A DNA stretch of 64,000 nucleotides from an uncultured Gammaproteobacteria bacterium (GCA_964622665.1 CAZUUO010000001.1:6666-70665); one strand, 5' to 3'; counted from the first letter of the stretch, positions 27,651 to 52,447 are shown. Program-made: numbers and translations. The notes: generated by a model not told the origin, from the sequence alone.

Positions 27651-27652
27651 AG

Positions 27653-29884
27653 TTACTTGTTTTGAAAAAAGTCACTCGCTTCATCAAAGGTAAACGGCAT
27701 TGTTGATGACCCCGCTGGTAATAAGGTTATAAGTTTTGACGCTTCATCCTTTTTTGGTCCATTCAAGGTGGTCATGTAGTGCAATGCTTCATAGGCTTCG
27801 CGATATAATTGCGCACGATAGGCACTTGCCGCAAATAACAATAAAATATTTTCATTATTTTTATTCTCCCTTACTCCAACCAAGTAATAGAATGCTGAAG
27901 AACGATATTCTCCCCATTTTGCGAGACTGTTTGCTAATATTTGCCAATCCTGAAACGCATTCACATACTCTTCATTTTTTAGGAGCGGTAAAATAAGTTT
28001 TTTTGCTTCTTCATCTTTCCCCAATACTATCAACGATACACCTTTGTAGAGTTTCATGAGTAAAACATTTGGTGCAAATGAAAGTGCTTTTGTATATTGC
28101 TCGTCTGCCAATTCAAATTTTCTTTGTAAATTGTAAATTTGTGCAATAGCTAAATAATAAGACTGGCGTTTTGGAGAAAGTTCACGTGCCTTCTCATATT
28201 GTGCGAGGGCTTGCGCACTATAATCACCACCTTCATACAAACGGGTTATATATAAATTTCCTTTTAACTCGTAATAATGAGAATAATACGGATTTTTAGC
28301 AATCAGTTCATCTACGAGTTGATGAGATCGTGCGTACAACCATTCACGAGCTGCAACATCTGTAATAGAGGGTGATTGCAAAATATTTGCCGCAGTTGTT
28401 AAAAATTCTTCACGAGGTGAGGGGAAATACATTGAGGGGGTACGTAATGCCAACTCATAGTAGGGCAACGCACGCGTATATAATCCGCTATCTGCTAATG
28501 AAAACCCTTTTACAATATAATTACTACTAATATAGGGATATACCACGGCGTACATAAGGGGAATTATTGATAATAGAATCGCAGCACCAAGTCCCCCGTA
28601 TACATTTTTAGGTTCAACTATTTCAAGTTCAACGTCATGTGCAACAAAATAAAACAGTGTTAGCTGTAGTAATACCGATAATGCTGTATCAAATGCCAGC
28701 AATAAATGGACATGATTAGCACACCAAATTCCTGCGAATATCATTTTTTTGGTAGTATGAATTTTTTTATGATTTAACACCACCCACAACATACCAAAAA
28801 AATATGCACCATAGGTCAGCAATCCGATTGCACCAAAATTCACCAGACGTTCTACAATGATATTATGAGCTCGATCAAAGTGCGTTTCCGAATATCCAAA
28901 TTGCAACAACGCTGGCTCGTAATACTTATCAAAGGCATATTTAAAATTTTCATTCCCCCATCCAAGAAATGGGCGTTCATAAAATGCATTGATACCTGCT
29001 TTCCATGCCAATACACGAGTGGTTAAGGTGATTTCACTGAGTGAAAATTTGGTGAGACGACCTAAATCACTGTTATTTTTTAAAAAGGTTACCGAAGAAC
29101 CTAACAATATAATTAGTAAAAGTGCGAGAGCTCCAAAACCTTTCTTTACTCTTCCTCGCCACTCTTTGTGATTCCACACTACATATATTCCACACACTCC
29201 AGCAAATACCAGTAATGCAATAAACGTACCACGCGTTTTACTTAAAATAACTCCTACCACATGGAGCAAGGCAACAGCAGCTGCACCGTAACGAATCCAT
29301 TTCTTTTCGTGTTCATCCACAATAAGCAACAGCGCTGCTGCAATGTAGAGTAATTCAATTTGTGCAAAGAAAATTGCATTTGCAATCGTTCCTGAGATAC
29401 GAAACCCCGTATCAATGCCATACAATATAACACCGACATATCGCAAAAATGCTGCTCCCACAACCGCTGCACTTGTTGCTACAACCGTGTACAACACGAT
29501 TTTCTTTTCTTTTGCTGTAGGAAAAAAAATCCAAACCGACAGATAGATGCTCATGACTGACCACAGTTGCAACAATCCCATGCCCCGCTCTTCATTACCC
29601 ACAAAACTTCGTACCACATCAATACCTAACAAAGAAATTATGGTGTCTACCAGTAATAAACTGATCGGTAGAGCAACCATCGGGTTTTTAATTATTTTTC
29701 CCAGTTGATTTCTATTTTCTTTATTCGTCATTAACACCATCATCAATGACAATAGTACTATGGATATCGTCATCAAAAATAACGTTTTCCCAAAAATGAA
29801 CGGATAACTCACGTACGGAATTACCACCAATGGTGTTGCGGCTAATCCTAGTAACGTCATTATTTTGGCAATTTTTTTAATCAT
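27653..29884 (-). CDS. O-antigen ligase-like membrane protein with C-terminal TPR repeats (paralog 2 of 3)
   Basis: Same architecture and the conserved loop 'FLGWGNENFKYAFDKYYE...RAHNIIVE'. It lies 2 nt from paralog 1. Confidence 0.6.
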   Translation of the reverse strand: MIKKIAKIMTLLGLAATPLVVIPYVSYPFIFGKTLFLMTISIVLLSLMMVLMTNKENRNQLGKIIKNPMVALPISLLLVDTIISLLGIDVVRSFVGNEERGMGLLQLWSVMSIYLSVWIFFPTAKEKKIVLYTVVATSAAVVGAAFLRYVGVILYGIDTGFRISGTIANAIFFAQIELLYIAAALLLIVDEHEKKWIRYGAAAVALLHVVGVILSKTRGTFIALLVFAGVCGIYVVWNHKEWRGRVKKGFGALALLLIILLGSSVTFLKNNSDLGRLTKFSLSEITLTTRVLAWKAGINAFYERPFLGWGNENFKYAFDKYYEPALLQFGYSETHFDRAHNIIVERLVNFGAIGLLTYGAYFFGMLWVVLNHKKIHTTKKMIFAGIWCANHVHLLLAFDTALSVLLQLTLFYFVAHDVELEIVEPKNVYGGLGAAILLSIIPLMYAVVYPYISSNYIVKGFSLADSGLYTRALPYYELALRTPSMYFPSPREEFLTTAANILQSPSITDVAAREWLYARSHQLVDELIAKNPYYSHYYELKGNLYITRLYEGGDYSAQALAQYEKARELSPKRQSYYLAIAQIYNLQRKFELADEQYTKALSFAPNVLLMKLYKGVSLIVLGKDEEAKKLILPLLKNEEYVNAFQDWQILANSLAKWGEYRSSAFYYLVGVRENKNNENILLLFAASAYRAQLYREAYEALHYMTTLNGPKKDEASKLITLLPAGSSTMPFTFDEASDFFQNK

Positions 29885-29887
29885 ACG

Positions 29888-32107
29888 TTATTTTATTTTA
29901 CTGTGGAGTGTTTCTATGAAAGCTTCAACTTTTTGTTTATAGGTTGGGTCTTTTTCAAGAACACTTGTTGCTGCACTAATACTCTCATCATATCGCCCCA
30001 CATTTGCTAATGCCATCGCCAATTGCAAACGTTGACTTGCAGTATCAATAAATTCTCCTGCATCATTAGGACGAGCAACTGCTTGTAACATCAGTACAAT
30101 TTCTTCATAATACCCATTTTTCTCAAAAATACCGATGAGATACTGAACCAATTCTTCGTTGGGTTGTATGGTGTAGCCCTCTCTTAGAGCAATAGATAAA
30201 TTTCTCGCTGCTTCTCCGCTATTTCCTACGGCATCTTGTGCAAGCCCTTGTAAAAAATACATGAGGGGCGGCGCACCAATTTTTTCCATATTTTTTCCAA
30301 TGAGTAATGCTTCATTTGGTTTTGCTAACGACAAGAGCATTCGTACCTCTGCAATATCAATCACATGACGGTCTGGTGACAATTCTCGTGCACGCGTAAA
30401 TAATGCTCGCGCTTTTTGTTCGTGACTTGCTTGATTTGCAGTATCAAACTCCGCAAGAAATCCTTCAACCTGTGCCAAACGTAAAGTTAAAGAAAAGAGA
30501 TGGGGGTTTTTTTCAAGTTCTTCTTGTAATCCCTTCTCTAAATTCTGTAATACTAACGAACGCACATCAGGACTCATGAGTCGTGCATTGTTTATCGTAT
30601 CATCGGCAATTGTTTTTAAGGTATCTCGATGGAAAATACTGTTTGATGAAAATAAATCTTTCACTTCATTTTCATACGTTGTTGAAAGTGCTCGGGCATC
30701 TAATCCACTTTGTACTACACCAGCTTTCTTCATTTCTTGTAGTGGCAATATTACCCCAAACAATATAAACCACACCGCAAAACCACCCAATACCACGGGA
30801 AAACTTGACTGTACCATGTTGGGGAGTCTTATTTCTTTTTCTAACGAGATAAGTACCGCAAGTCCCAGAAACACCGCAAATAAGATTGATGGCGTATCAA
30901 ACGTCAAACTTCCAAATGCAATGTATGCAACGATCAATGCAGCAACCGTACGAGCACTATATTTTTCATCACCCTTATACACACGAATTCTCCACAACAA
31001 TAAGCCGAGTGCTACCACAAAAAATAATAATCCAATAATTCCTTGGCTTGCCAAATATTCAAAGAAGATACTGTGTGGACGTTCTCCCCATGTTTCATAA
31101 AGTGATGCGTGTGCTCGCGCAATTAATCCCACCGGATAATGACGATCATACGCAACCTCATAATTTTCTGGTCCCCAACCAAGTAGAGGTTTTTCTAAAA
31201 ATGAGACGTACGCTGTTTTCCAAAAATAAATACGCGTGTCGATACCACTCACACTCAATAATTTTTGTGCCACACTATCAACGGTGCCAAAAAATTCGCG
31301 TTGAGCTACCACCCACAACGAACCAACCGTAAAAATAGCGACAAGTCCGACAGTTGCACCAACTTTTAGTAATTTAGATTTTTGTTCGTACAAGGCATAC
31401 CCAAAAAATGTCAGCACACCGGCGATCAACCCAATACCACCTGCACGTGTTTTAGCAACTAGCACCGTCACGACAACAAACATCGTCAACAATGTTGCCC
31501 ATATTTTTTTTGTTTTATTTTTTTCTTCCCACCACAACGGAATACCAGCTAATGCCGACATCATCACGTGTGCCCCAAAATAAGTTTCATTACCAAATAA
31601 ACCGATAAATCGTCCACTCAATCCAGGAACACCAACATGCACGTCAAATAATCCGTTATTAAATTGGATGAGCCACGCAACTATTGATGCGAACACCCCT
31701 GAATATAATAAGGTATACCACGCCAATTTTCGGTGCTCGGGATTTTTTCGTAAGTATGCCCCAAATACCACTGCACCACTTAATAATACGATCCAGGTAG
31801 TTGTACCACTTAACCGAAGTGCATCACCAAAAAAACTTTTAGCAACATCAACCCCAGTGAAACCTGAAATTAATCGAATTCCAATTATAGTGAGTACTCC
31901 CAATACTGTTGCAGTAATTGGTAACGATGACTTTTTTTGCAATGCTTTCATGCAACTGACTCCCACAACCATCGCAATCAATCCAAAAGCAATCAACCAT
32001 TTTCCGATATGATACGGAAAAATAGTTTGATATGTTACGATAGTAGGTAATATTGCCAATATCCCCAAAATAATTACGAGAATATTTTTTTCAAACCATT
32101 GTCTCAT
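29888..32107 (-). CDS. O-antigen ligase-like membrane protein with C-terminal TPR repeats (paralog 3 of 3)
   Basis: Same architecture with loop 'LLGWGPENYEVAYDRHYP...RAHASLYE'. It lies 3 nt from paralog 2 and overlaps the Ig-like gene by 4 nt. Confidence 0.6.
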   Translation of the reverse strand: MRQWFEKNILVIILGILAILPTIVTYQTIFPYHIGKWLIAFGLIAMVVGVSCMKALQKKSSLPITATVLGVLTIIGIRLISGFTGVDVAKSFFGDALRLSGTTTWIVLLSGAVVFGAYLRKNPEHRKLAWYTLLYSGVFASIVAWLIQFNNGLFDVHVGVPGLSGRFIGLFGNETYFGAHVMMSALAGIPLWWEEKNKTKKIWATLLTMFVVVTVLVAKTRAGGIGLIAGVLTFFGYALYEQKSKLLKVGATVGLVAIFTVGSLWVVAQREFFGTVDSVAQKLLSVSGIDTRIYFWKTAYVSFLEKPLLGWGPENYEVAYDRHYPVGLIARAHASLYETWGERPHSIFFEYLASQGIIGLLFFVVALGLLLWRIRVYKGDEKYSARTVAALIVAYIAFGSLTFDTPSILFAVFLGLAVLISLEKEIRLPNMVQSSFPVVLGGFAVWFILFGVILPLQEMKKAGVVQSGLDARALSTTYENEVKDLFSSNSIFHRDTLKTIADDTINNARLMSPDVRSLVLQNLEKGLQEELEKNPHLFSLTLRLAQVEGFLAEFDTANQASHEQKARALFTRARELSPDRHVIDIAEVRMLLSLAKPNEALLIGKNMEKIGAPPLMYFLQGLAQDAVGNSGEAARNLSIALREGYTIQPNEELVQYLIGIFEKNGYYEEIVLMLQAVARPNDAGEFIDTASQRLQLAMALANVGRYDESISAATSVLEKDPTYKQKVEAFIETLHSKIK

Positions 32108-33639
32108 ATAACAAGCGGAGAAACCGAGATTACTCCAATATCAATAATATCTACTCCGTCAATGCGCGCGGTTACCCAAGCGGTTCCCGCCACTTTCGTA
32201 CTAAACATAAACACCGCTTCCCCATTTTCATTTGTCACACTTTCTTTTGGAATTATCACATCGCCATTTCGGTTACTGCTCAGGGCAACTTTTGCATTTT
32301 GTATACGCGCACCAATTGCATTACGTGCGGTTACCGTTACCGTAACTTTTTCAATACCATCTGCTAAAATTGGAGAAATACTTGTTGCAATTGTTGAGCG
32401 TGTTGCACTTGCTGGCACATTACTTGTTACTGGTGGTTCAGCAAAATATACTTTCATAGTTCCAATCCACACACTGTTTGCGTACACATCCAGGTACGCA
32501 CTTCCCATTTGAGTTGAAGTAATAAATGCCGTTACGATACCACTTGAGTTGGTAATTTTTTGAGGAATAGAAATCACATCAACACCACCTCGATTTGATT
32601 TTACGTCTACCGTCACATCACGGAGCCGTGTGCTTGTGCCGTCTCCACTGATGACTTCTACCTGAATTTGTCCATTGGTCGCACCATCAGCGATGTACCC
32701 ACCAATTTGGCGAATACGGGAATCTTGTGGAGAAATTTTTGATCCATTTATTTTTTCAATGGTAATTACTTTTTCTTTTGCTACATTCCCTACGGTAATT
32801 GTAAATAATACATCATTAAAATTTCGCGTTACCACTTTTCCTCGGTATGTCCCAGGTGCAACGGCAAATTTTTGTTCGCCACCCACTTGTGTCATCAATA
32901 CGTTAGTAAAATCGAAATCCTTATACAAAGTTACTGAGGCTGCTGGTACCGGCATACCCGCTTCATCAATCACTCGTATAGTAAGTGGTTTTGTTAAAGC
33001 TGCGCAATTCATGGATGTACTCGCTACCGTGCAAGGAGTATTGCCCTGTAAACGTACGGTTGTCACGGTATTTTTTTGCACCAACACGCGTGATAATGCT
33101 GTGTTAGTTGTTACATTTCCAAAACCATCTGCAAATATCACCAATGCCTTTTCACCATTTTCTGAAAAATAGTATGTATTATTTATTTTTTTTGCCGCTT
33201 GTACGCCGCCAAATTCAACAACTGCATTATTAATTGGCAATTGTGATTCATCGTACACCGAAACTACGAGTGGGTATGCAAGGCGAAAGGGAGTATTAAT
33301 ATTTTTAGTACTTCCTACATCCAAAATACCTGTTTCTTGTGTCCCCCCAGTCACATATCCTCGTGCCCCAACCGTAAATGAGCATGAACGATCCTCAAAA
33401 TTTTTCCATGCGATTGTAGCAGTAAATTGTCCAGGTACTCCATTTGATTTTACACTTTCTACACTATCAACTGAACAATTACCCACTTCAATTTCAGGAA
33501 TGCGAGATGTTAATGGTTCATTAAATTCATCAACTACTGAAAAAGTTACCGTTGATACCGCCGCCGCCCTTGCCCCCAACGGCAGTGCTATATATAAAAC
33601 CCCCCCAGCAATAAGCCCTACAATATTGCGTAATTTCAT
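32104..33639 (-). CDS. secreted protein with repeated Ig-like/beta-sandwich domains
   Basis: Signal peptide ('LIAGGVLYIALPLGARAAA') then repetitive T/V/S/N/G-rich segments. It is transcriptionally linked to the three ligase-like genes. The Ig-like call is inferred from the compositional pattern. Confidence 0.5.
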   Translation of the reverse strand: MKLRNIVGLIAGGVLYIALPLGARAAAVSTVTFSVVDEFNEPLTSRIPEIEVGNCSVDSVESVKSNGVPGQFTATIAWKNFEDRSCSFTVGARGYVTGGTQETGILDVGSTKNINTPFRLAYPLVVSVYDESQLPINNAVVEFGGVQAAKKINNTYYFSENGEKALVIFADGFGNVTTNTALSRVLVQKNTVTTVRLQGNTPCTVASTSMNCAALTKPLTIRVIDEAGMPVPAASVTLYKDFDFTNVLMTQVGGEQKFAVAPGTYRGKVVTRNFNDVLFTITVGNVAKEKVITIEKINGSKISPQDSRIRQIGGYIADGATNGQIQVEVISGDGTSTRLRDVTVDVKSNRGGVDVISIPQKITNSSGIVTAFITSTQMGSAYLDVYANSVWIGTMKVYFAEPPVTSNVPASATRSTIATSISPILADGIEKVTVTVTARNAIGARIQNAKVALSSNRNGDVIIPKESVTNENGEAVFMFSTKVAGTAWVTARIDGVDIIDIGVISVSPLVI

Positions 33640-33759: not shown

Positions 33760-34074
33760 TTACGCAGCAATTGAAACGATTTTCAATGCGGTAAATGGTT
33801 GGCGGTGACCAACAGTTCGACGATAGCGAACCTTGCGTTTGTATTTCACCACTGAAACCTTAGCAGCACGATCTTGTGCTTCTACCACTGCTTTAATTGT
33901 GACATTCACGCTTGGAGTACCTACTTTTACATCACTTCCATCATCATTACCAATAAGTAATGCTTCTTTCATGATAATTTCAGAACCAACTTCAGCAAGC
34001 ATTTTTTCTACTTTAACTGTTTGGCCTTCGCGTACAATGTATTGTTTTCCACCTGTTGTTATTACCGCAAACAT
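33760..34074 (-). CDS. rplU: 50S ribosomal protein L21
   Basis: Classic L21 N-terminus 'MFAVITTGGKQYIVREGQ' and 'KVSVVKYKRKVRYRRTVGHRQPFT'. Confidence 0.9.
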   Translation of the reverse strand: MFAVITTGGKQYIVREGQTVKVEKMLAEVGSEIIMKEALLIGNDDGSDVKVGTPSVNVTIKAVVEAQDRAAKVSVVKYKRKVRYRRTVGHRQPFTALKIVSIAA

Positions 34075-34149: not shown

Positions 34150-35154
34150 TCAAGCCTTTTGTACCCTTTTTTCAACATAAACTATCATGATGAGTGATAG
34201 GACCAATAACACCCCCAAAAGTGCGTATTTTTGGGCGGAAGTTAATATTAAGGTCACCCCACTAATGAGGAGTGCTACCCCATAATATACCCAAACCGTC
34301 TTTTCATCCCCAAGGTAATTCCGCAATCGAAAGTGTAAATGGGTGTCATCCCCTTCCCACGGTTTTTTCCCATTTTTCAGTCTTTTGAGCACGACATACA
34401 AAAAATCTATGCTGGGTAATGCCAAAATTAAGCTTGCGGCGGCAAATTTGATTCCACCGAGTAATGCCAAGAGCGCCAACATAAACCCTGTCCACGTACT
34501 CCCGATATTGCCCAAAAATACCTGTGCCGGCTTATAATTCCATACCAAAAACCCCAGACAACTTGCACCAAATAATGCTGATAAGATGGCAATATTTTTA
34601 TCAAAATAGGGGGTTGCTAATGAAAACGCAGCAATACCAAACCCACCAATCGCACTAATTCCCGTCACCAATCCATCCAATCCATCCAATATCTTTGTCA
34701 CCATAGTCATCCCCACAAGCCACACAAATGACACAATACCACTGACCCAGAGTGATAATACTAGCATTCCACCAAAAGGATTTGAAATGACAATTTCTTT
34801 ATTGAGCCAAAGTACCACCCATAATGCCGCACCAATTACAGCTGCCAATTGTTTTCGTGATGAAATGTTGTATCTATCATCTTGATAACCCGAAATACCG
34901 AGCACCATTGTTGCCCCCACACAGGCTATAACATAGGACGCGGGAATTTCTAAACGCCCACTTATTACACAAAACCCAGAAACCACTAAAAAGGCGAATA
35001 TAATGCCAGCGCCTCCCAATAATGGTGTTGGGGTGGTATGTTTTTTTCGTGGTAGATTTGGTTTATCAACAATTCCGTACGCCCGCGCAAATGCAGTTAT
35101 TATTCGCGTACTTATCACTGCCAAGCAGAATGTTGTGAGTAACAATGACACCAT
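34150..35154 (-). CDS. glycosyltransferase family 4 polyprenyl-phosphate sugar-1-phosphate transferase (MraY/WecA family)
   Basis: 10-11 TM helices and the 'DKPNLPRKKHTTPTPLLGG' cytoplasmic-loop signature shared by MraY/WecA/TagO. Confidence 0.75.
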   Translation of the reverse strand: MVSLLLTTFCLAVISTRIITAFARAYGIVDKPNLPRKKHTTPTPLLGGAGIIFAFLVVSGFCVISGRLEIPASYVIACVGATMVLGISGYQDDRYNISSRKQLAAVIGAALWVVLWLNKEIVISNPFGGMLVLSLWVSGIVSFVWLVGMTMVTKILDGLDGLVTGISAIGGFGIAAFSLATPYFDKNIAILSALFGASCLGFLVWNYKPAQVFLGNIGSTWTGFMLALLALLGGIKFAAASLILALPSIDFLYVVLKRLKNGKKPWEGDDTHLHFRLRNYLGDEKTVWVYYGVALLISGVTLILTSAQKYALLGVLLVLSLIMIVYVEKRVQKA

Positions 35155-35161
35155 AGTACGC

Positions 35162-37834
35162 TTAGCGTACCGTTACTTTCTCCCCTTCGTCAATTTCTAT
35201 GGTTCCATTGCGTTGTACTTTTTGTGCCAATAAGAGGTCGGCTACTACTGTTTCAATAGTATCAGTAATTACTCGTCGCAGAGGTCGAGCACCAAACTCA
35301 GGGCTGTACCCTCTGTTTGCCAGTGATGTAACTTCAGCATCGGTAACCACCAAGGTAATTCCTTCTTTTTCTTTCAATTTTTCTGCAATCGATGACACCA
35401 ACATATGTGCAATTTCTTCGATATGCTCTCGTTGTAATGGTCTAAATACAATTACCCCATCAAAACGATTGAGTAACTCTGGTTTATAGACTCCCTGTAG
35501 TTCTTTTTGCATGAGTGCCGTCTTCATGTTTTCATGACTTTCTCCTCGCGCTACCGCATTTTGAATATACTGACTTCCTGCATTTGAGGTTGCAATTACC
35601 ATTACATTAGTACAATCAATCGTTTGTCCCACACTATCAGTAATTCTTCCATCATCCAACAACTGCAAAAATACATTGAGCACTCGCGCATCCGCTTTTT
35701 CAAACTCGTCGAGTAACAAAATAGCAAATGGTTTTTGTTTAATACTTTCTGTTAGTAATCCAGTGCCTTGTTTATTGGTTTCCCCCAATAATCGCGTAAT
35801 AGCATTCGCATCTTGAAATTCAGACATGTCAAACCGAATCATGCGGTCTTCCCCACCAAAATATGAACGCGCCAACATTTTAGTTGTTTCTGTTTTTCCT
35901 ACACCCGTTGGACCCAAGAATAAAAACGAAGCAATGGGACGATTGCCACTACGCATATTTGTGCGAGCACGACGCAACGCTGAACTCACCGCTTTTACTG
36001 CTTCATCTTGTCCCACCACACCTTTTTTCATGGTTTCTTCTAACGCCAATAACGTGTCTCGTTCATCCGTGTTAACACTTTGTACGGGAACATTTGCTTT
36101 TTGTGATGCAATAAAACCAACATCTTGATCGCGTACCAATTGTCCTTTTCCTCGCGTTGATGCAACACTAGCACACACCTCTTCAATTAAACGGATACAT
36201 TTTTCAGGTGCGGCCATATCATGAAATAATTTTCGCGATAAACTTACGGCTTGTGCAATCGCTTGATAGGTGACGTACACTCCATGACGATTTTCAATTA
36301 TGGCTGTTTTTGATTCCACCGCTTGAATACAACCTCCTTCATCTAATTCATTGAGTTGCACTCGTGTTAATAAACTACCCAATCGGGTACGCGCAACGGT
36401 TGTTTTATACGCACCTTCACTACAAGTTCCCAACAACATGATTCCTGTTTTCTCAATTACTTCTGCCAATGTTTCACTTAAATCTTGGCCTCCACCACCA
36501 CCTGCTTTAATACCTATCAAACCATCAATATCTTCAAACACTAACGCCACATTTCCCGAACGAGAAGCTTCGCCGATTATTTGCATGAGTCGCACATAAT
36601 ACATGGAAGGGTTTTCACCACTGACAATAAATGCAATGGGCACCACAATGATACGTTTGTTAGCAAGCGCTTTTGATGCCGTTGCACCTGCAATTTTTTG
36701 TGCGATCATTTCAATGAGTGCCATTTTACCCACCCCTCTATCTCCCGTAATTAAAACACCACGTGCTCCACTATCAAAGGCACGCATCACTCCTTCTATT
36801 TCGCTTTCCCGTTGTACAACTGGTAACAATCTTCCCGCAACGGCTAATTTTATTAAATCTTTCCCCACACTATTTAATAACGGTGTTGCCAATCCCGTCA
36901 TCGCTTCGCCAGCATCACTGAGTGAGTGGAGTGCTGCCTTTTGCCAATATGCGCGATAGGAACTTGATAACATGCGCGTAAATCTCATCCATGCCACTCC
37001 ATGTTCTCGCATCGTTTGTGTGATGCCGACATGTTCTAAAATTTGAGCAACATACTCATTATGCATCATGGCACTTTCAGCGATATGTGACACTCGCACC
37101 AATTCTTCACCTTGTTGTGATGCTAAAATGTACGCATGTGCTAATGTTTCGTAAAATCTCGATTCAGCAATATTTTCTTTCGTTGCACTACTGACCGTTG
37201 CAATACTTTGTATGAGCGTGTCTTGTAATTGCTTGGGAGGTAACTCAAATCGAATACACAATTCCTTCAATTCTTTTTCATCAAGTAACCGAATAAAGAG
37301 ATGTTGTTCGTTGGTATGTTCTTTTCTTTTGTTTGCAAGTAAGATTGCATCTTCAACTACTTTTTTTGCGCGTTGGTCAAAACTATACGCAATATTATGA
37401 TACGCACCGCCATGAAATTTTCGCGCAACCTCCCACGTCATTCCTGATTCTATATTTTGTAGTGTTACCCCTTTTTTAACCGGCAACACATTACTTCCTT
37501 CACGACGCAGCGACGCAATTGCTATCCACATTAATATTCCCGCACCCGTTAGTGATAGGTAGTGAGATTCCTGCAGCACCTCTTGTTGCAAAAATACCTG
37601 CACCGCCACTAACCCTACTAACAATCCCGCTAACAAAAAAAATATAACATTTTTAGTAATGAGTAATACCCGAGCCATTCTTCGTGCGCGGATTTCATCA
37701 ACCCGTAACCCTTCTTGCCATGCAAAAAAATGAGGGCCGTTTACAAATCCCATATATGCACCGCGACATTGCGCGCGAATTTCGTGATCATTCTTTCCAT
37801 CACAGATCAGTAGTGGAATATTAGGCAGCGACAT
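35162..37834 (-). CDS. Hsp100/Clp-family double-AAA+ ATPase with N-terminal transmembrane segments and a degenerate D1 Walker A
   Basis: D2 has Walker A 'GPTGVGKTE', Walker B 'ILLLDEFEKA' and sensor-2 'GARPLRRVI'. D1 has 'GDRGVGKMA' (Met at the Ser/Thr position) and 'LVFEDIDGL'. Two hydrophobic helices occupy about aa 55-110. Confidence 0.75.
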   Translation of the reverse strand: MSLPNIPLLICDGKNDHEIRAQCRGAYMGFVNGPHFFAWQEGLRVDEIRARRMARVLLITKNVIFFLLAGLLVGLVAVQVFLQQEVLQESHYLSLTGAGILMWIAIASLRREGSNVLPVKKGVTLQNIESGMTWEVARKFHGGAYHNIAYSFDQRAKKVVEDAILLANKRKEHTNEQHLFIRLLDEKELKELCIRFELPPKQLQDTLIQSIATVSSATKENIAESRFYETLAHAYILASQQGEELVRVSHIAESAMMHNEYVAQILEHVGITQTMREHGVAWMRFTRMLSSSYRAYWQKAALHSLSDAGEAMTGLATPLLNSVGKDLIKLAVAGRLLPVVQRESEIEGVMRAFDSGARGVLITGDRGVGKMALIEMIAQKIAGATASKALANKRIIVVPIAFIVSGENPSMYYVRLMQIIGEASRSGNVALVFEDIDGLIGIKAGGGGGQDLSETLAEVIEKTGIMLLGTCSEGAYKTTVARTRLGSLLTRVQLNELDEGGCIQAVESKTAIIENRHGVYVTYQAIAQAVSLSRKLFHDMAAPEKCIRLIEEVCASVASTRGKGQLVRDQDVGFIASQKANVPVQSVNTDERDTLLALEETMKKGVVGQDEAVKAVSSALRRARTNMRSGNRPIASFLFLGPTGVGKTETTKMLARSYFGGEDRMIRFDMSEFQDANAITRLLGETNKQGTGLLTESIKQKPFAILLLDEFEKADARVLNVFLQLLDDGRITDSVGQTIDCTNVMVIATSNAGSQYIQNAVARGESHENMKTALMQKELQGVYKPELLNRFDGVIVFRPLQREHIEEIAHMLVSSIAEKLKEKEGITLVVTDAEVTSLANRGYSPEFGARPLRRVITDTIETVVADLLLAQKVQRNGTIEIDEGEKVTVR

Positions 37835-38186
37835 ATGCAGAAAGATTCATTACAAAATATCCTAATAAAAATAAGGGAACGGTGATGTACGCAACAAATC
37901 CAATCAATATGCATACTGTACCAAGTATGGCACCAATACTACGTACTACTACTTGAAATAATCGCATGAAAAAACTGATGATGCGTCCTTGCCAATCATA
38001 CTGTTGAAACATGGGTGTAAAAATATGACGCGTCCACATCCACACACCCATCGCACGCCACACACCAACCACCATCGCAACAACCGTGTTGTACGCGCTT
38101 GCCAAACCACGACCATACCACCACAACGGCGCAATGATAGTGTCCAGTAGTGTTACTCGTATTGCATTTTTTACATATGCTACCAT
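37821..38186 (-). CDS. small membrane protein (121 aa) upstream of and overlapping the Clp-like gene
   Basis: Three predicted TM helices. It overlaps the Clp-like ORF by 14 nt. Confidence 0.35.
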   Translation of the reverse strand: MVAYVKNAIRVTLLDTIIAPLWWYGRGLASAYNTVVAMVVGVWRAMGVWMWTRHIFTPMFQQYDWQGRIISFFMRLFQVVVRSIGAILGTVCILIGFVAYITVPLFLLGYFVMNLSAYVAA

Positions 38187-38294: not shown

Positions 38295-38981
38295 CTAACT
38301 CTGTGTTACTGATTGCTCTTCTAAATCATACACAAGGAAATGAGCGTGGCGCTCCCATTCAGTGTCCCACCGCTCGACATTGAGATGGCGGCCCTGACTA
38401 CGATTCAGGCACAGCACATAGAAACTCCAATTGGCATTAAGCGCGACAACTGCAACTATATTTTGGATATCGGGATACCTTGCTCCAAAAGCTAGGATTT
38501 GTCCTGTGTATGCAGGCCAGAAACCCCTACGGATAATTTCATCGATTGCTTCCTGTGTTGAAATTCGCCGATGAAAACCAATAAGTCGAAGTTTAAAATC
38601 ACCACGAGGACCCACGTAGTTACGGTTATCAGCAAAGGCATATGCATCGACCATATCACTTACCCAGTGGTAATCACCTGACGTAACCAACTGATCAAAA
38701 GTTTGATCATTACCGACCGTGACAGGATATACCGCTTGTTCTGCTGATAGGACGAGTTTATGTTCACTGGATTCAGCTTTGGATAGTTCCAAGATTAGTT
38801 CAGCAATCCGTTTTTGATTTTCTGTTTGTGAAATAACTTTTTCCGCTTCTACCTTAGATAGACCCTCAATATTAAGGAGTGTTGAGATTTCCATATTTGC
38901 CTCACCGGAAATCCAGAATCCACAAAAACCTCTCTTCATAGGAACCTCCTTTAGGTCCATGGTGCTGAATGAAAATTCCAT
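38295..38981 (-). CDS. hypothetical protein (228 aa)
   Basis: Intact ORF whose real start may be internal (MKRGF... or MEIST...). A bidirectional terminator lies at about 39080-39112. Confidence 0.3.
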   Translation of the reverse strand: MEFSFSTMDLKEVPMKRGFCGFWISGEANMEISTLLNIEGLSKVEAEKVISQTENQKRIAELILELSKAESSEHKLVLSAEQAVYPVTVGNDQTFDQLVTSGDYHWVSDMVDAYAFADNRNYVGPRGDFKLRLIGFHRRISTQEAIDEIIRRGFWPAYTGQILAFGARYPDIQNIVAVVALNANWSFYVLCLNRSQGRHLNVERWDTEWERHAHFLVYDLEEQSVTQS

Positions 38982-39112: not shown

Positions 39113-39436
39113 TTACTTTAATGCGACGTAATCTTCTGAATTAACTTTGATGTATTCTACTTTTCCTTCAAGGGTTAATCCGAGCTGTGCAATTTTTTCA
39201 CTAATGACCGTGCTTGCTTGTAGTTGTGCAATATCACGCTCAATTTTTCTATTTTGTTTTTCTAAATTTTGCACCATTTCTTGCACATCCTGTAATGCAA
39301 ATCCTTTTACCGTGAGTGCATTCACTTGAAATACATATAACAATACCACCACAATACCAACTCCAAACACTGCCCCATTGCGTAGGTACACTGTTTTTAA
39401 TGAAACGGTTCGTGTGGTAGCAATATGTCCCTCCAT
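39113..39436 (-). CDS. FtsL-like septum-formation initiator (single-TM coiled-coil protein)
   Basis: 107 aa with one TM ('AVFGVGIVVVLLYVF') and a coiled-coil ('QEMVQNLEKQNRKIERDIAQLQ'). Its position directly after rsmH is as in dcw clusters. Confidence 0.5.
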   Translation of the reverse strand: MEGHIATTRTVSLKTVYLRNGAVFGVGIVVVLLYVFQVNALTVKGFALQDVQEMVQNLEKQNRKIERDIAQLQASTVISEKIAQLGLTLEGKVEYIKVNSEDYVALK

Positions 39437-39448
39437 ATAGTACGTCTA

Positions 39449-40318
39449 TTACTTCTTTTGTGCGACGCGCAATTTTGCACTGCGTGATCGCGGATTTTGT
39501 TTAATTTCTTCGTCACTGGGAGATAACGGTTTTGGTGTTATTACTTCCAATGATTCGTTGCGAGCAAATTGCAATTTTACAATTTTATCTTCTAACGAGT
39601 GAAACGTGAGAATAGCGATGCGTCCTCCTGGTTTAAGCAGTGACACCATTTTAGGAATTGCTTCCTTTAAATTATCCAGTTCATCATTCACAGCAATGCG
39701 CAACGCTTGAAATACGCGTGTTGCTGGATGAATGGTACCTCGAGGCACATGTGACATTTCTTTTTCAATGATTGCCACCAACTCACTCACTCTTGTGATA
39801 CGTTTTTTACGACGATGTTCTACAATAGCGTGGGCAATTTTTCTCCAGTATCGTTCACCACCCAATTGTCGAAATATTTGTCCCAATGATGATTCCTTTT
39901 CTTTATCAAGAATGTCAGCTGCAGTTACCTCCAATGAATCATTAAGACGCATGTCGAGCGGACCATCTTTCATGAATGATAATCCTTGTTCATCATTCAA
40001 TTGTGATGACGACCATCCCAAGTCGAGCAAAATCGCATCCACACTTTCAACATCTTTCGGTAATATCGTATCAATATACTTGAAATTACCAGGCAAAATG
40101 GTGAGAGAGTGTTTGTATTTTTTCAATCGTTCCTCTGCGCGTTTTCGTGATTCTTTATTTTGGTCGATTCCATAGACATGACCCAATGGTGCAACTTTTT
40201 GCAAAAAAAGTTCGGTGTGTCCCCCATCTCCGAGTGTTCCATCAATAACAACAGCTGAATCATCAATGTTCAATAGTTCTAGAATTTCTTTACTCATGAT
40301 CGGTACGTGGTAGGTCAT
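39449..40318 (-). CDS. rsmH: 16S rRNA (cytosine1402-N4)-methyltransferase RsmH (MraW)
   Basis: 'VVIDGTLGDGGHTELFL' and 'DLGWSSSQL' signatures. It overlaps mraZ by 4 nt. Confidence 0.9.
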   Translation of the reverse strand: MTYHVPIMSKEILELLNIDDSAVVIDGTLGDGGHTELFLQKVAPLGHVYGIDQNKESRKRAEERLKKYKHSLTILPGNFKYIDTILPKDVESVDAILLDLGWSSSQLNDEQGLSFMKDGPLDMRLNDSLEVTAADILDKEKESSLGQIFRQLGGERYWRKIAHAIVEHRRKKRITRVSELVAIIEKEMSHVPRGTIHPATRVFQALRIAVNDELDNLKEAIPKMVSLLKPGGRIAILTFHSLEDKIVKLQFARNESLEVITPKPLSPSDEEIKQNPRSRSAKLRVAQKK

Positions 40319-40746
40319 ATGCCAAAAGGAGTCAGTGTGGCAGCGAGTTCATTTGCCGTTTGTGCGGTTTTACTTTGATATTCTCGCCACTTCGTTTCAT
40401 CCCACAATTCAATGCGAGTATTAAGACCCGCGAATACGACAGTTTTACCTGAGAAAGCGAATTCCCGCAAATATAGCGGAATCATGATGCGTCCCTGTGC
40501 ATCAGGTTCTACTTCAATAGCGCCTGATAACATGTGTCGGGTAAATGCACGAGCCTGCTCATTGGAAATGGGTAATTGGGAAATCTTTTCTATAAAAATA
40601 TTCCAATCTTCTCTTGTATATAAAAAGAGCGCGCCATCTAAACCGCGGGTCAGTACGGCACTATTTCCTAATGTGTTGCGAAACGTACTCGGTACTGCAA
40701 CCCTCCCTTTTGCATCGAGTGCATGTGTAAATTCTCCAATAAACAT
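40315..40746 (-). CDS. mraZ: transcriptional regulator MraZ
   Basis: Two MraZ/SpoVT-AbrB repeats containing 'LDAKGRVAVP' and 'DAQGRIMIP'. Confidence 0.85.
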   Translation of the reverse strand: MFIGEFTHALDAKGRVAVPSTFRNTLGNSAVLTRGLDGALFLYTREDWNIFIEKISQLPISNEQARAFTRHMLSGAIEVEPDAQGRIMIPLYLREFAFSGKTVVFAGLNTRIELWDETKWREYQSKTAQTANELAATLTPFGI

Positions 40747-40966: not shown

Positions 40967-41377
40967 TTACAGTGCAACTCGCGTCAGTTCTCTTTCCGTG
41001 ATATACACACCGGTCAAATCCACCTGACGTCCTTCAACCCAATAATTTACTAACAGTGCACCCTCCGTTAGCGGAATGATGACATTATAATGTGCGAATC
41101 CATTTATATCCCATGAGGATTCATCAAATCTCTCAACAGTTACGAGGCAGAGCGGGTCTCTTCTCAACTCCACAACTCTTGGTGACTTGATAAAAATACA
41201 CCTTCTTATATTTGTTTCGGTGGGGCTAAAAACTCCCACCGCAATCTCCCAAATTTTCTCGTCGCCACTTTTGTACACCTGAATCCTGATTTTCAAGATT
41301 GTTCCCTCTAAATCCAAAAAACCAGATTCATCGCCAGATTCATCGTCTATATCTATGTAGCTTTTCGACATGACCAT
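40967..41377 (-). CDS. hypothetical protein (136 aa)
   Basis: Intact ORF. A terminator hairpin (gacccc-gtag-gggtc) lies at about 40937-40960. Confidence 0.3.
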   Translation of the reverse strand: MVMSKSYIDIDDESGDESGFLDLEGTILKIRIQVYKSGDEKIWEIAVGVFSPTETNIRRCIFIKSPRVVELRRDPLCLVTVERFDESSWDINGFAHYNVIIPLTEGALLVNYWVEGRQVDLTGVYITERELTRVAL

Positions 41378-51700: not shown

Positions 51701-52447
51701 TTATGACCAGCGCGTTGTCGTTAATAACACTATAAGTAATAAAATTATGTACACTGCTTGTAGGCCTGCCTGTTTCATGTCAATTTCTTGCAATAATCGA
51801 TCTCGCTCTACTCCCAGCAGATACAGCACCGGTGCAAGTACCAGTAGAGATTTGGTCAGTGGTGCAAATGGTAGCATGTTCATGATCCACCAAAATGGTA
51901 AGGCAACAATAACTTGTACCAACACACTTGCCAACCGTAGTTCTTTTGGGATACGGAGCGCACTAATGTACCAATAGACTATTGCCGCATGAGTAATCGA
52001 GGCCGCAATAATCCACATGCCAATCGTTTGTATTGAAACAATTCCAATTAAAGCAAGAGGCATCCCAATCGCTAGCAATACCACCATAATACTGACCTGT
52101 AATAATTTGCGATATGCGGGTGGACGCGCTCGGAAATCTCCTTTTAATTGTAACGTGTAATAAAAAAATAGTGACAAGAGCAGTGAACTTACTACCGCAA
52201 TCTGTAACTGCATCCACCAGTATTCAAAGGTATATCCAATAAGAGGCATTGCAATAATGAGTAGCCAGATACCACCTAGTAATGGTTTCACGTTTTCACT
52301 TTCTTTTCCCATTGATTGTTTCCACCACCACGTACTGTATCCAAGCATTCCTATCACCAACAGTGGTAACGCATAATAATAGGAGGTCGCGTAGATCATC
52401 CCACAAGAATATGCCGTTACAATGAGTGGGGTGTACCACTGTTTCAT
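51701..52447 (-). CDS. hypothetical polytopic membrane protein (248 aa)
   Basis: Seven or more predicted TM helices. It lies 1 nt from the HtrA-like gene. Confidence 0.35.
   Translation of the reverse strand: MKQWYTPLIVTAYSCGMIYATSYYYALPLLVIGMLGYSTWWWKQSMGKESENVKPLLGGIWLLIIAMPLIGYTFEYWWMQLQIAVVSSLLLSLFFYYTLQLKGDFRARPPAYRKLLQVSIMVVLLAIGMPLALIGIVSIQTIGMWIIAASITHAAIVYWYISALRIPKELRLASVLVQVIVALPFWWIMNMLPFAPLTKSLLVLAPVLYLLGVERDRLLQEIDMKQAGLQAVYIILLLIVLLTTTRWS

What the first reader, a model, noticed from the sequence alone, without database searches (positions are those of the whole stretch)
35162..38186. Membrane-anchored double-ring Hsp100/Clp-type ATPase with a degenerate first nucleotide-binding domain, coupled to a small membrane protein
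The 890-aa protein has a canonical D2 AAA+ module (GPTGVGKTE, DEFEKA, GARPLRR). Its D1 Walker A reads GDRGVGKM, with Met where the Mg-coordinating Ser/Thr should be, and its Walker B region reads FEDIDG. This suggests D1 is a non-hydrolysing or regulatory ring. Uniquely, about 55 residues of N-terminal hydrophobic helices (aa about 55-110) predict membrane anchoring. A 121-aa 3-TM protein overlaps the start by 14 nt. Clp/Hsp100 unfoldases are normally soluble. A membrane-tethered version with an inactive D1 could be a dedicated extractase/disaggregase for membrane or secretion substrates. No ClpP-binding loop (IGF/LGF tripeptide) was spotted by eye, which would make it ClpB-like rather than protease-coupled.
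Basis: partly seen in the sequence, partly recalled or inferred. Interest (0 to 1): 0.5.

Follow-up and report, generated by a model that had tools for sequence, protein, structure and literature searches.

The report
Membrane-anchored Clp-like ATPase with small partner
This is a real, widely conserved pair of genes in candidate-phyla-radiation bacteria: a membrane-tethered relative of the ClpB/ClpC protein-unfolding motors and a tiny membrane protein. The motor has a dead first engine and has lost the loops that normally grip substrates, so it probably remodels cell-envelope machinery rather than acting as a classical unfoldase.

Summary
On the minus strand, a 121-aa hydrophobic ORF (37821-38186) overlaps by 14 nt an 890-aa double-ring Clp/Hsp100 homologue (35162-37834). 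That homologue has an N-terminal two-helix membrane hairpin, a degenerate D1 and an intact D2.

The pair is not a one-off. It defines a large CPR/Patescibacteria family:
- In 73 of 75 informative species loci, the small gene is followed directly by the Clp-like gene.
- A WecA/MraY-like glycosyl-phosphate transferase usually comes next (53 of 70 loci).
- mraZ-rsmH-ftsL often lies upstream (35 of 70).

Family-wide motif pattern:
- D1 keeps its P-loop glycines and lysine but has lost the catalytic Glu (kept in 4 of 104), the Arg fingers and the pore loop.
- D2 keeps every catalytic motif, but the GYVG pore loop is deleted or degenerate in 98 of 104.
- There is no ClpB middle domain and no ClpP-docking loop.
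- Canonical ClpB sits beside the gene in one related genome, with similar second Clp hits in three more.

Best reading: a non-proteolytic, membrane-bound Hsp100 paralogue. D1 acts as a nucleotide-binding scaffold and D2 as the only motor. It works with its small partner as a remodeller or regulator at the cytoplasmic membrane face, probably on envelope or division machinery. The client is inferred, not shown. I found no published description. It is a new variant of a known kind.

The parts
37821..38186 (-). Small membrane partner, 121 aa. The basic N-terminal ~82 aa carry the conserved motifs P[VIL]WWY.xG and F.PM[FY]GQYDWQGR.IS.FMR. The C-terminal ~35 aa are uncharged and hydrophobic.
   Evidence: ORF. 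Family alignments A1/A4. 1379 clusters, all 'hypothetical', no Pfam. AF2 pLDDT 93, all-helical. Charge and hydropathy.
35162..37834 (-). Membrane-anchored double-ring Clp/Hsp100-like ATPase, 890 aa.
   Evidence: Pfam AAA_2, ClpB_D2-small and AAA_lid_9. PDB phmmer to ClpC/ClpB/ClpA. AF2 pLDDT 92 / pTM 0.86. Foldseek to ClpC/ClpB/ClpA protomers, TM(target) ~0.8.
37703..37834 (-). aa 1-44: cytoplasmic N-terminal mini-domain (beta-hairpins 28-39). It is a degenerate zinc ribbon: only C11 and C23 remain of CxxC...CxxC.
   Evidence: 50 of 104 family members carry CxxC(8-25)CxxC in the first 80 aa. AF2 strands.
37493..37702 (-). aa 45-114: two-helix membrane hairpin. TM1 is ~56-82, the short outside loop is QQEVLQESHY, and TM2 is ~91-109.
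   Evidence: Hydropathy. AF2 helices 45-82 and 89-114. Family-wide K+R density is 0.224 per residue in the flanks against 0.079 in the loop.
36932..37393 (-). aa 148-301: eight-helix Clp_N-type N-domain.
   Evidence: The NCBIfam ClpA model aligns from aa 154. Pfam Clp_N is recorded for close homologues P0002, P0004 and P0009. AF2 helices.
36152..36883 (-). aa 318-561: D1 AAA+ module, catalytically degenerate. Walker A GDRGVGKM is at nt 36722-36745 and Walker B LVFED at nt 36530-36544. The Arg-finger pair ERRFQ reads LTRVQ, and the pore loop KYRGEF reads N-PSMYY.
35165..36130 (-). aa 569-890: D2 AAA+ module plus D2-small domain, catalytically intact. Walker A is at nt 35888-35914 and Walker B at nt 35693-35719. 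Pore loop 1 is shortened by 4 aa and lacks the Tyr (GETNKQGTG, nt 35759-35785).
34150..35154 (-). Conserved downstream neighbour: GT4 polyprenyl-phosphate glycosyl-1-phosphate transferase (WecA/MraY family), 334 aa.
   Evidence: Pfam Glycos_transf_4. NCBIfam WecA 91.7 bits, MraY 49.8 bits, both below cut-off. PDB MraY/GPT. Adjacent to the Clp-like gene in 53 of 70 loci.
38295..38981 (-). 228-aa ORF upstream, probably in the same transcription unit. It is lineage-specific and not part of the conserved module.
   Evidence: No Pfam, NCBIfam or PADLOC hit. No tblastn hit in any of the 86 loci then held. Promoter-like site 39021-38993 upstream and terminator-like site 39114-39092 before it.
39113..40746 (-). 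Upstream division/cell-wall cluster head: mraZ (40315-40746), rsmH (39449-40318) and an FtsL-like 107-aa protein (39113-39436).
   Evidence: ORFs. Pfam MraZ and Methyltransf_5 on the orthologous genes in related loci. rsmH lies within 4.5 kb upstream in 35 of 70 loci.

Best explanation
The two genes encode a two-component, membrane-bound, non-proteolytic Hsp100-type machine specific to CPR/Patescibacteria.

Architecture. The 890-aa subunit is held in the cytoplasmic membrane by an N-terminal helical hairpin with N-in/C-in topology. Its (degenerate) zinc-ribbon head, Clp_N domain and both AAA+ rings are therefore cytoplasmic, and the N-domain/D1 face is tethered close to the membrane.

D1. It keeps the phosphate-binding glycines and lysine but has lost the catalytic glutamate, the Arg fingers and the pore loop. 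It most likely binds nucleotide, or is simply structural, and serves as a non-hydrolysing assembly or regulatory ring, like NSF-D2 or Pex1/6-D1.

D2. It keeps every catalytic motif and is the only motor.

Mechanism. The aromatic pore-loop-1 residues of both rings are missing and the D2 loop is short and unconstrained. The machine therefore probably does not thread polypeptides processively. It more likely uses D2 ATP hydrolysis as a switch or remodeller acting on membrane-embedded partners, analogous to Torsin with its membrane cofactors.

Partner and client. The co-translated small membrane protein is its obligate partner (adaptor, regulator or stator). The most likely field of action is cell-envelope and division machinery: the adjacent WecA/MraY-like glycosyl-phosphate transferase and/or proteins of the mraZ-rsmH-ftsL cluster.

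Shown: architecture, motif states, conservation and synteny. Inferred: hexamer formation, nucleotide binding by D1, physical interaction with the small protein, the non-threading mode, and the envelope or division client.
For: - Homology and fold: Pfam and NCBIfam, PDB phmmer, AF2 pLDDT 92, Foldseek to ClpC/ClpB/ClpA.
- Membrane hairpin: hydropathy, AF2 helices and the positive-inside rule across 104 members.
- D1 degeneracy under selection. Among 104 50%-identity cluster representatives, the P-loop Gly columns are at least 90% conserved (G369 invariant) and the Lys position is K 87 / R 13. The catalytic Glu is kept in only 4 (N 39, D 34, G 12). The residue after Lys is T/S in 43 and otherwise M/K/R/E/Q/D. 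The Arg-finger pair is lost. A D1 pore-loop aromatic is present in 14 of 104 (76 genome loci).
- D2 intact: GPTGVGKTE in 71 of 76; the Walker B DE is kept in every listed variant; TSN sensor 1 in 75 of 76; NR[FY]D Arg finger in 75 of 76; GARP[LMI]RR in 76 of 76.
- D2 pore loop: a canonical G-aromatic-x-G is present in only 6 of 104. The loop is 4-6 residues shorter in most, including the window.
- No M-domain: ClpC residues 403-465 have no counterpart, and the AF2 helices run straight from the D1 lid into D2.
- No ClpP loop: 1 of 104 has the tripeptide, and the segment is a constant 32-34 aa.
- Partner coupling: 73 of 75 loci found with the small protein carry the Clp-like gene directly downstream, mostly -26 to +26 nt apart. 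A remote member with canonical D1 Walker A and a canonical D2 pore loop also has the partner upstream (hhalign 99.85%).
- Envelope context: GT4 within 600 nt in 53 of 70 loci, rsmH upstream in 35 of 70. One natural Clp-GT4 fusion ORF exists.
- Paralogue status: canonical ClpB next door in L059, and similar second, opposite-strand Clp hits in L049, L070 and L085.
- Torsin precedent for a Clp-related ATPase without aromatic pore loops that is controlled by membrane cofactors: PMC5425593.
Against: - No experiment or complex model was available.
- About 40% of family members carry a Tyr immediately before the LTE helix (G-Y-LTE), which might substitute as a gripping residue. Six of 104 keep a canonical pore loop. 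Threading may therefore be ancestral and not fully lost. The window's clade has Leu there.
- The window's D1 keeps one basic residue at the second Arg-finger position (K/R in 64 of 104 members).
- The GT4 and dcw neighbourhood is conserved gene order in small, syntenic genomes and need not mean a functional link. GT4 was not found downstream within the held locus in 9 of 70 loci, and rsmH is not within 4.5 kb upstream in half.
- The Clp-GT4 fusion is a single sighting (P0058 is identical to the L013 ORF) and could be a deletion artefact.
- Transmembrane topology rests on hydropathy, charge bias and AF2, not on a dedicated predictor.
Confidence: 0.45

Rival explanations
1. Classical membrane-protein extractase or unfoldase. 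The hexamer sits with its N-domain/D1 entry face at the membrane, like FtsH or Msp1. It pulls membrane or secretion substrates through the central pore and releases them in the cytoplasm. The small protein would be an adaptor or a substrate.
For: - The N-terminal membrane tether lies next to the N-domain, as in FtsH and Msp1.
- The D2 motor is intact and D2 pore-loop-2 / DDGR.TD is conserved.
- A Clp_N domain is present.
- Six of 104 members keep a canonical GY.G loop, and ~40% have a Tyr next to the LTE helix.
Against: - The pore-loop-1 aromatic is absent from both rings in the window protein and in most of the family.
- The D2 loop varies in length and sequence, which is a sign of relaxed constraint.
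- From established Hsp100 biochemistry (my knowledge), mutating the D2 pore Tyr of ClpB or Hsp104 abolishes translocation.
Confidence: 0.25
2. ATPase partner of a ClpP-type protease: a membrane-bound ClpAP/ClpCP analogue that substitutes for or supplements FtsH.
For: The best PDB and Foldseek matches are ClpC protomers. ClpA-like length with no M-domain.
Against: - No [ILVMF]G[FLIM] docking tripeptide in the sensor-1 to Arg-finger segment (1 of 104). The segment is ~7 residues shorter than in ClpC.
- No ClpP gene in the window or in the listed loci.
- NCBIfam ClpA score is 388 against a cut-off of 993.
Confidence: 0.04
3. The organism's general ClpB-type disaggregase, which merely happens to have a hydrophobic N-terminus.
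For: The highest NCBIfam score is to ClpB (412.8 bits). There is no ClpP loop.
Against: - The score is far below the ClpB cut-off of 1232.
- No M-domain for DnaK coupling, and no pore-loop tyrosines.
- A canonical ClpB is encoded next to the gene in L059, with the same kind of second Clp hit in L049, L070 and L085.
- The membrane hairpin is conserved family-wide.
Confidence: 0.04
4. Decaying or non-functional paralogue, or a mobile anti-phage defence ATPase.
For: D1 motifs and pore loops are degenerate. PADLOC DolB and PDC-M37B hit the D2 at ~120 bits.
Against: - D2 catalytic motifs are near-invariant, and many N-domain and D1 scaffold positions are at least 90% conserved across 104 clusters.
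- The gene sits at a fixed housekeeping position between ftsL and GT4/rplU in dozens of species.
- The PADLOC hits cover only the generic AAA_2 region, and the small partner has no PADLOC hit.
Confidence: 0.03

Closest known systems
Class I Clp/Hsp100 ATPases (ClpC, ClpB, ClpA)
   Same: Clp_N domain, then D1, then D2, then the D2-small domain. D2 shares about 40% identity in aligned homologues. The AF2 protomer superposes on ClpC/ClpB/ClpA (TM(target) ~0.8). All D2 catalytic motifs are kept.
   Different: It has an N-terminal zinc-ribbon remnant and a two-helix membrane anchor. D1 lacks the catalytic Glu, Arg fingers and pore loop. The D2 GYVG pore loop is deleted. There is no M-domain (unlike ClpB and ClpC) and no ClpP-docking loop (unlike ClpA and ClpC). 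It has an obligate small membrane partner.
Torsin ATPases with LAP1/LULL1 (eukaryotic ER/nuclear envelope)
   Same: Clp/Hsp100-related AAA+ proteins that lack aromatic pore loops, are membrane-associated through an N-terminal hydrophobic segment, and work with membrane-spanning cofactors. They are thought to be non-threading (PMC5425593).
   Different: Torsins have a single AAA+ ring, lack their own Arg finger (the cofactor supplies it), and are luminal. Here D2 keeps its Arg finger, there is a second (dead) ring, and the small partner is not an AAA+-like fold.
FtsH and Msp1/ATAD1 (membrane-anchored AAA+ machines)
   Same: N-terminal transmembrane anchoring places the ring's entry face at the cytoplasmic membrane surface. 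FtsH likewise has two N-terminal TM helices.
   Different: Those are single-ring classical-clade AAA proteins with aromatic pore loops, and FtsH has a fused M41 protease. None of these features is present here.
Double-ring AAA+ proteins with one non-hydrolysing ring (NSF D2, Pex1/Pex6 D1)
   Same: One ring keeps the nucleotide-binding fold but not catalysis and serves assembly or regulation. The other ring is the motor.
   Different: They belong to a different AAA+ clade, are soluble, and the active ring keeps functional pore loops.

Membership tests
Clp/Hsp100 class I (two AAA+ modules) | Tandem D1 and D2 AAA+ modules with a C-terminal D2-small domain | tested here: met
   Pfam AAA_2 1.5e-46, ClpB_D2-small 1.4e-21, AAA_lid_9. 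D1 aligns to ClpC D1 at 1e-22. AF2 and Foldseek.
Clp/Hsp100 class I (two AAA+ modules) | Clp_N N-terminal domain | tested here: met
   The NCBIfam ClpA model aligns from aa 154. Pfam Clp_N is recorded for homologues P0002, P0004 and P0009. AF2 shows eight helices at 148-301. Pfam Clp_N itself did not reach E 0.01 on the window protein.
Clp/Hsp100 class I (two AAA+ modules) | Aromatic pore-loop-1 residues in D1 (KYRG) and D2 (GYVG) | tested here: not met
   D1 reads N-PSMYY and D2 reads GE----TNKQGTG when aligned to ClpC. Family-wide, 6 of 104 have a canonical D2 loop and 14 of 104 have any aromatic in the D1 loop.
ClpB / Hsp104 disaggregase | Coiled-coil middle (M) domain inserted in the D1 small subdomain | tested here: not met
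   ClpC residues 403-465 have no counterpart and the query has 5 residues there. AF2 helices 544-561 lead directly to D2 helix 569-580.
ClpB / Hsp104 disaggregase | Reaches the NCBIfam equivalog cut-off (TIGR03346) | tested here: not met
   412.8 bits against a cut-off of 1232.1.
ClpA / ClpC (ClpP-activating unfoldases) | ClpP-docking hydrophobic-Gly-hydrophobic loop in D2 | tested here: not met
   No [ILVMF]G[FLIM] between sensor 1 and the Arg finger. Only 1 of 104 family members has one, and the segment is 32-34 aa.
ClpA / ClpC (ClpP-activating unfoldases) | Reaches the NCBIfam ClpA equivalog cut-off (TIGR02639) | tested here: not met
   388.5 bits against a cut-off of 993.15.
ClpA / ClpC (ClpP-activating unfoldases) | Both rings catalytically competent (Walker B Glu, Arg fingers) | tested here: not met
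   D1 Walker B is ED rather than DE and the RR finger reads TR. The D1 Glu is kept in 4 of 104.
FtsH | Single AAA module fused to an M41 zinc protease behind two N-terminal TM helices | tested here: not met
   The two N-terminal TM helices are present, but there is no peptidase domain and there are two Clp-type AAA+ modules.
Torsin | Single Clp-like AAA+ module lacking its own Arg finger, activated by a LAP1/LULL1-type cofactor | tested here: not met
   The D2 Arg finger NR[FY]D is kept in 75 of 76. The protein is double-ring. The partner is a 121-aa helical protein with no AAA-like fold. The resemblance is functional only.
Dodola DolB / PADLOC ClpB-like defence ATPases | Full-length match plus the partner gene of the defence system | tested here: not met
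   The DolB hit covers only D2 (aa 584-869; 120.7 bits). The partner and neighbour have no PADLOC hit. The chromosomal context is a fixed housekeeping position.
New CPR family (small partner + membrane Clp) | Small WWY/PM[FY]GQYDWQGR protein encoded immediately upstream of a Clp-like gene with an N-terminal TM hairpin | tested here: met
   The window pair overlaps by 14 nt. 73 of 75 loci show the pair. The hairpin is family-wide.
New CPR family (small partner + membrane Clp) | Physical complex between the two proteins; hexameric assembly; ATPase confined to D2 | not testable with these tools

The most novel reading that the evidence does not exclude
A bacterial counterpart of the Torsin principle. 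An Hsp100 that has given up polypeptide threading would use ATP hydrolysis in a single live ring to move a ring of membrane hairpins and small membrane partners. This would gate or regulate the first membrane step of envelope-glycan or peptidoglycan precursor synthesis (the adjacent WecA/MraY-type enzyme), or divisome assembly, in CPR bacteria. That would be a previously unrecognised, lineage-wide control module for cell-envelope biogenesis in a superphylum that makes up a large share of bacterial diversity.
Probability: 0.2. Interest if true: 0.8.

Novelty: new variant of a known kind. Interest (0 to 1): 0.6.

Why it matters
Hsp100 machines are textbook soluble, pore-loop-driven unfoldases. 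This is a large natural family, in hundreds of CPR/Patescibacteria lineages, that is membrane-inserted, keeps only one live ring, has discarded the gripping loops, and is always paired with a tiny membrane protein at a fixed position in the division/cell-wall cluster. It is therefore a natural experiment on what an Hsp100 motor can do without threading. It also gives a concrete, testable handle on envelope and division biology in CPR bacteria, where most conserved membrane proteins have no known function. In addition, it assigns a partner and a context to a 'hypothetical' small-protein family of about 1,400 clusters.

Tried and rejected
- AF2 of a linker fusion (small protein + Clp aa 1-135, 31 paired rows) to test for a complex.
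- Foldseek of the small-protein model against the PDB. Nothing below E = 1.
- Per-member Pfam scan of the small family. Only sub-threshold DUF4873 hits (27 of 69, best E 0.0028), treated as noise.
- PADLOC. Only generic D2 matches, so a defence role was rejected.
- Literature searches, plus reading PMC8871954, PMC10936435 and PMC6744442. No description of a membrane-anchored Hsp100 or of this pair in CPR was found in the searchable library.
- The Clp-GT4 fusion as 'Rosetta stone' evidence. P0058 turned out to be identical to the L013 ORF, so it is a single sighting and is used only as a weak hint.
- The two loci without a Clp-like gene after the small gene (L014, L057). Both carry Sua5/TsaC there instead, so this is a shared rearrangement and not a different ATPase partner.
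- A second MraY or any Clp/ClpP elsewhere in the window. None was found among the ORFs scanned.
- No model coordinates were available to the scripts, so channel lining and the membrane-to-ring geometry could not be measured.


Full report
**1. What is in the sequence**

The window has about 40% G+C with strongly negative GC skew throughout, and nearly all genes lie on the minus strand. The minus strand carries two overlapping ORFs. One is an 890-aa ORF at 35162-37834. The other is a 121-aa ORF at 37821-38186. They overlap by 14 nt.

The neighbours, all on the same strand, are:
- mraZ (40315-40746), rsmH (39449-40318) and an FtsL-like 107-aa protein (39113-39436);
- a 228-aa ORF with no homologues (38295-38981), then the pair itself;
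- a GT4 WecA/MraY-family transferase (34150-35154) and rplU (33760-34074).

Consensus scans place a terminator-like hairpin right after the FtsL-like gene and a promoter-like site before the 228-aa ORF. A second promoter/terminator pair brackets rplU. In this genome the unit may therefore be 228-aa ORF, small gene, Clp-like gene, GT4. These are consensus matches only.

**2. The large protein is a class I Hsp100 with an unusual N-terminus**

Pfam finds AAA_2 (aa 632-792), ClpB_D2-small (800-881) and AAA_lid_9 (503-562). The NCBIfam ClpB, ClpA, ClpV, ClpG and ClpK models all match but fall far below their cut-offs. ClpB scores 412.8 against 1232, and ClpA scores 388.5 against 993. The ClpA model covers aa 154-882 in one stretch. 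phmmer against the PDB gives ClpC, ClpB, ClpE and ClpA at E values down to 1e-101.

AlphaFold2 was run with a 104-sequence family alignment. It gives mean pLDDT 92 and pTM 0.86. The predicted layout is:
- short beta-hairpins at aa 28-39;
- two long helices at 45-82 and 89-114;
- an eight-helix N-domain at 148-301;
- D1 at 318-561 and D2 at 569-890.

Foldseek superposes the model on ClpC, ClpB and ClpA protomers with TM(target) about 0.8.

**3. Motif states in the window protein**

Against ClpC and canonical homologues:

| Element | Canonical | Window protein |
|---|---|---|
| D1 Walker A | GEPGVGKT | GDRGVGKM |
| D1 Walker B | ILFIDE | ALVFED |
| D1 Arg-finger pair | ERRFQ | LTRVQ |
| D1 pore loop | KYRGEFEERL | N-PSMYYVRL |
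| D2 pore loop | GAPPGYVGHDDGG | GE----TNKQGTG |

D2 retains GPTGVGKTE, LLLDEFEKA, the TSN sensor 1, the NRFD Arg finger and the GARPLRR sensor 2. Only its pore loop is lost.

ClpC's middle-domain residues 403-465 have no counterpart, so there is no M-domain. The segment between D2 sensor 1 and the Arg finger is 33 aa and lacks a hydrophobic-Gly-hydrophobic ClpP-docking tripeptide.

**4. Membrane anchoring**

Hydropathy peaks lie at aa ~56-82 (Kyte-Doolittle 2.75) and ~91-109 (1.45). Both coincide with the AF2 helices. Homologues have two hydrophobic stretches at the same place, often more hydrophobic than here.

Across 104 members, K+R density is 0.224 per residue in the 15 residues flanking the hairpin and 0.079 in the connecting loop. 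In the window protein the counts are 5 and 4 in the flanks against 0 in the loop. This indicates N-in/C-in topology with cytoplasmic AAA+ rings.

The first ~45 residues are a remnant of a CxxC...CxxC zinc ribbon. That motif is intact in 50 of 104 members, and the window keeps two of the four cysteines.

**5. It is a family, and the pairing is the rule**

Close full-length homologues (38-99% identity; P0005 is labelled Parcubacteria group bacterium) and more distant ones such as P0010 (Nealsonbacteria, 30%) and P0011 share the architecture. A profile of the N-terminus-to-D1 region was searched against 1.84 billion cluster representatives. The best 150 hits all have E < 1e-81, and most are 850-940 aa.

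Genomic look-ups show the order small gene (118-135 aa), Clp-like gene, GT4, often behind mraZ-rsmH-ftsL.

The small protein's conserved peptide was then used to search one genome per species (185,579 species). This gave 300 relatives. Every informatively named title is CPR/Patescibacteria: Parcubacteria, Magasanik-, Buchanan-, Uhr- and Falkowbacteria. Many 'uncultured Gammaproteobacteria ... binchicken' titles carry the same CPR gene order and look like placeholder labels.

Among the 80 loci retained:
- 73 of 75 with enough downstream DNA have the Clp-like gene directly after the small gene, mostly -26 to +26 nt apart;
- 53 of 70 have GT4 within 600 nt after it, and 61 of 70 have it somewhere in the locus;
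- 35 of 70 have rsmH within 4.5 kb upstream.

The two exceptions (L014, L057) share a Sua5/TsaC gene at that position.

A remote member keeps a canonical D1 Walker A and a canonical D2 pore loop, yet it also has the partner upstream (hhalign probability 99.85%). The pairing is therefore ancestral to the family.

**6. Family-wide motif statistics**

In the 76 genome-derived sequences (the window protein plus 75 locus ORFs) and the 104 cluster representatives:
- D1 P-loop glycines are at least 90% conserved, and G369 is invariant. The lysine position is K 87 / R 13.
- The residue after the lysine is T/S in only 43 of 104.
- The D1 catalytic Glu survives in 4 of 104 (N 39, D 34, G 12).
- The D1 Arg-finger pair is gone.
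- D2 motifs are near-invariant.
- A canonical G-aromatic-x-G D2 pore loop occurs in 6 of 104, and the loop varies in length. About 40% have a Tyr directly before the LTE helix. The window's clade has Leu there.
- The ClpP tripeptide occurs in 1 of 104.

The pattern is selection for a nucleotide-binding-shaped but non-catalytic D1, a fully catalytic D2, and relaxed constraint on the gripping loops.

**7. The small partner**

It has 1379 relatives at 90% clustering, all about 116-147 aa, all annotated 'hypothetical' and all without a Pfam domain. The invariant or near-invariant motifs are P.WWY..G and W..N.F.PM[FY]GQYDWQGR.IS.FMR.

AF2 gives pLDDT 93 with helices at 2-46, 48-53 and 65-120. The N-terminal ~85 residues carry about 10 K/R. 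The last ~34 residues carry essentially no charge and have mean hydropathy 2.17.

I read this as a basic, cytoplasmic or interfacial N-terminal part followed by a C-terminal membrane segment. Whether that segment is one long TM helix or a tight hairpin around the conserved Pro is not resolved. No structural neighbour was found.

**8. What it is not**

It is not the organism's disaggregase. A canonical ClpB (879 aa, with KFRG, ERRFQ, M-domain and GYIG) lies divergently next to the pair in L059. Similar second Clp hits occur in L049, L070 and L085.

It is not a ClpP partner, because there is no docking loop and no ClpP gene in any neighbourhood examined.

It is not a defence gene. The PADLOC matches cover only the generic D2, the partner has no hit, and the locus is a fixed housekeeping position.

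It is not a decaying gene, given the conservation described above.

**9. How it most likely works**

Shown:
- the domain architecture and motif states;
- the inferred N-in/C-in topology;
- family-wide conservation;
- obligate gene pairing;
- the envelope and division neighbourhood.

Inferred:
- It forms an Hsp100-type hexamer whose N-domain/D1 face is tethered to the membrane.
- D1 is a non-hydrolysing scaffold or regulatory ring, comparable to NSF-D2 or Pex1/6-D1 (established knowledge).
- D2 is the sole motor.
- The small protein is a stoichiometric membrane partner.

Pore-loop-1 aromatics are what canonical Hsp100s use to grip and thread substrates, and their mutation abolishes translocation (established knowledge). 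Torsins are Clp-related, lack these loops, and are considered non-threading, cofactor-controlled machines (PMC5425593). For these reasons I favour an ATP-driven switch or remodeller over a processive extractase.

The client is the weakest step. Gene order points to the adjacent WecA/MraY-type enzyme and/or divisome components. One lineage encodes a Clp-GT4 fusion that is topologically sensible, because GT4's first TM helix is deleted and the cytoplasmic loop follows D2 directly. It is a single sighting.

**10. Novelty and score**

No paper in the searchable library describes a membrane-anchored Hsp100 or this gene pair. It belongs to the Hsp100 superfamily but fails the defining tests of ClpB, ClpA/ClpC, FtsH and Torsin. 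I rate it a new variant of a known kind.

Interest is 0.6. The architecture and the loss of the gripping loops would surprise a specialist, and the family is large and lineage-defining. The function remains inferred.

Noticed in passing
window 34150-35154 (-); 65 related loci: The GT4 (WecA/MraY-family) enzyme next to the Clp-like gene has Asn (VFLGNIGS) where MraY and GPT have the conserved Asp of FMGDxGS. Most orthologues in related loci have Glu (IFLGEGGS in 35 of 65). DGLDGL and the HLH[FHY]RL motif are kept. This looks like a distinct CPR subfamily whose activity or substrate is unclear.
   Followed up: partly
L013 4231-7935 (identical to P0058): A single 1234-aa ORF fuses the Clp-like ATPase to the GT4 enzyme. 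GT4's first TM helix is deleted, so D2 runs straight into the cytoplasmic loop before TM2. It is topologically plausible, but it has been seen only once.
   Followed up: partly
L059 3047-5686 (-); also L049, L070, L085: In L059 a canonical ClpB lies divergently upstream of the small/Clp-like pair, with an M-domain, both pore-loop aromatics (KFRG in D1, GYIG in D2) and both catalytic rings. L049, L070 and L085 show the same kind of second, opposite-strand Clp hit.
   Followed up: partly
window 25596-33639 (-): Three tandem paralogous Wzy_C (O-antigen-ligase / O-oligosaccharyltransferase-like) membrane proteins of 684-743 aa, two of them with weak sub-threshold TPR matches (25596-32107). They are followed by a 511-aa Big_1/invasin-like surface protein (32104-33639). 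Together with GT4 this suggests a surface-glycosylation locus.
   Followed up: no
window 38295-38981 (-): A 228-aa ORF between the FtsL-like gene and the small partner has no Pfam, NCBIfam or PADLOC hit and no tblastn match in any of the 86 loci then held. It is a lineage-specific insertion into an otherwise conserved gene order.
   Followed up: partly
L014 6646-7746; L057 2917-4082: The only two loci where the small gene is not followed by the Clp-like gene both have a Sua5/TsaC gene there instead. This suggests one lineage in which the pair was separated or the ATPase was lost.
   Followed up: partly
loci L009, L010, L012 and many others: Many genome records titled 'uncultured Gammaproteobacteria bacterium isolate binchicken_...' or 'SRP..._co..' carry typical CPR gene order (mraZ-rsmH-ftsL-small-Clp-GT4-rplU). 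One small-protein homologue is labelled 'Candidatus Methylomirabilis sp.'. These look like placeholder or mis-binned taxonomic labels.
   Followed up: no
window 1-64000: GC skew is negative in every 2-kb bin, cumulative skew falls monotonically, and almost all long ORFs are on the minus strand. The window therefore lies within one replichore, with no origin or terminus.
   Followed up: no
window 40967-41377 (-), 20497-21951 (-), 18393-19235 (-), 51701-52447 (-), 5753-6757 (-), 1894-2571 (-), 15477-16343 (+): Several sizeable ORFs (136-484 aa) have no Pfam match at all, which is typical CPR 'dark matter'. One of them (136 aa) sits between uvrC and mraZ.
   Followed up: no
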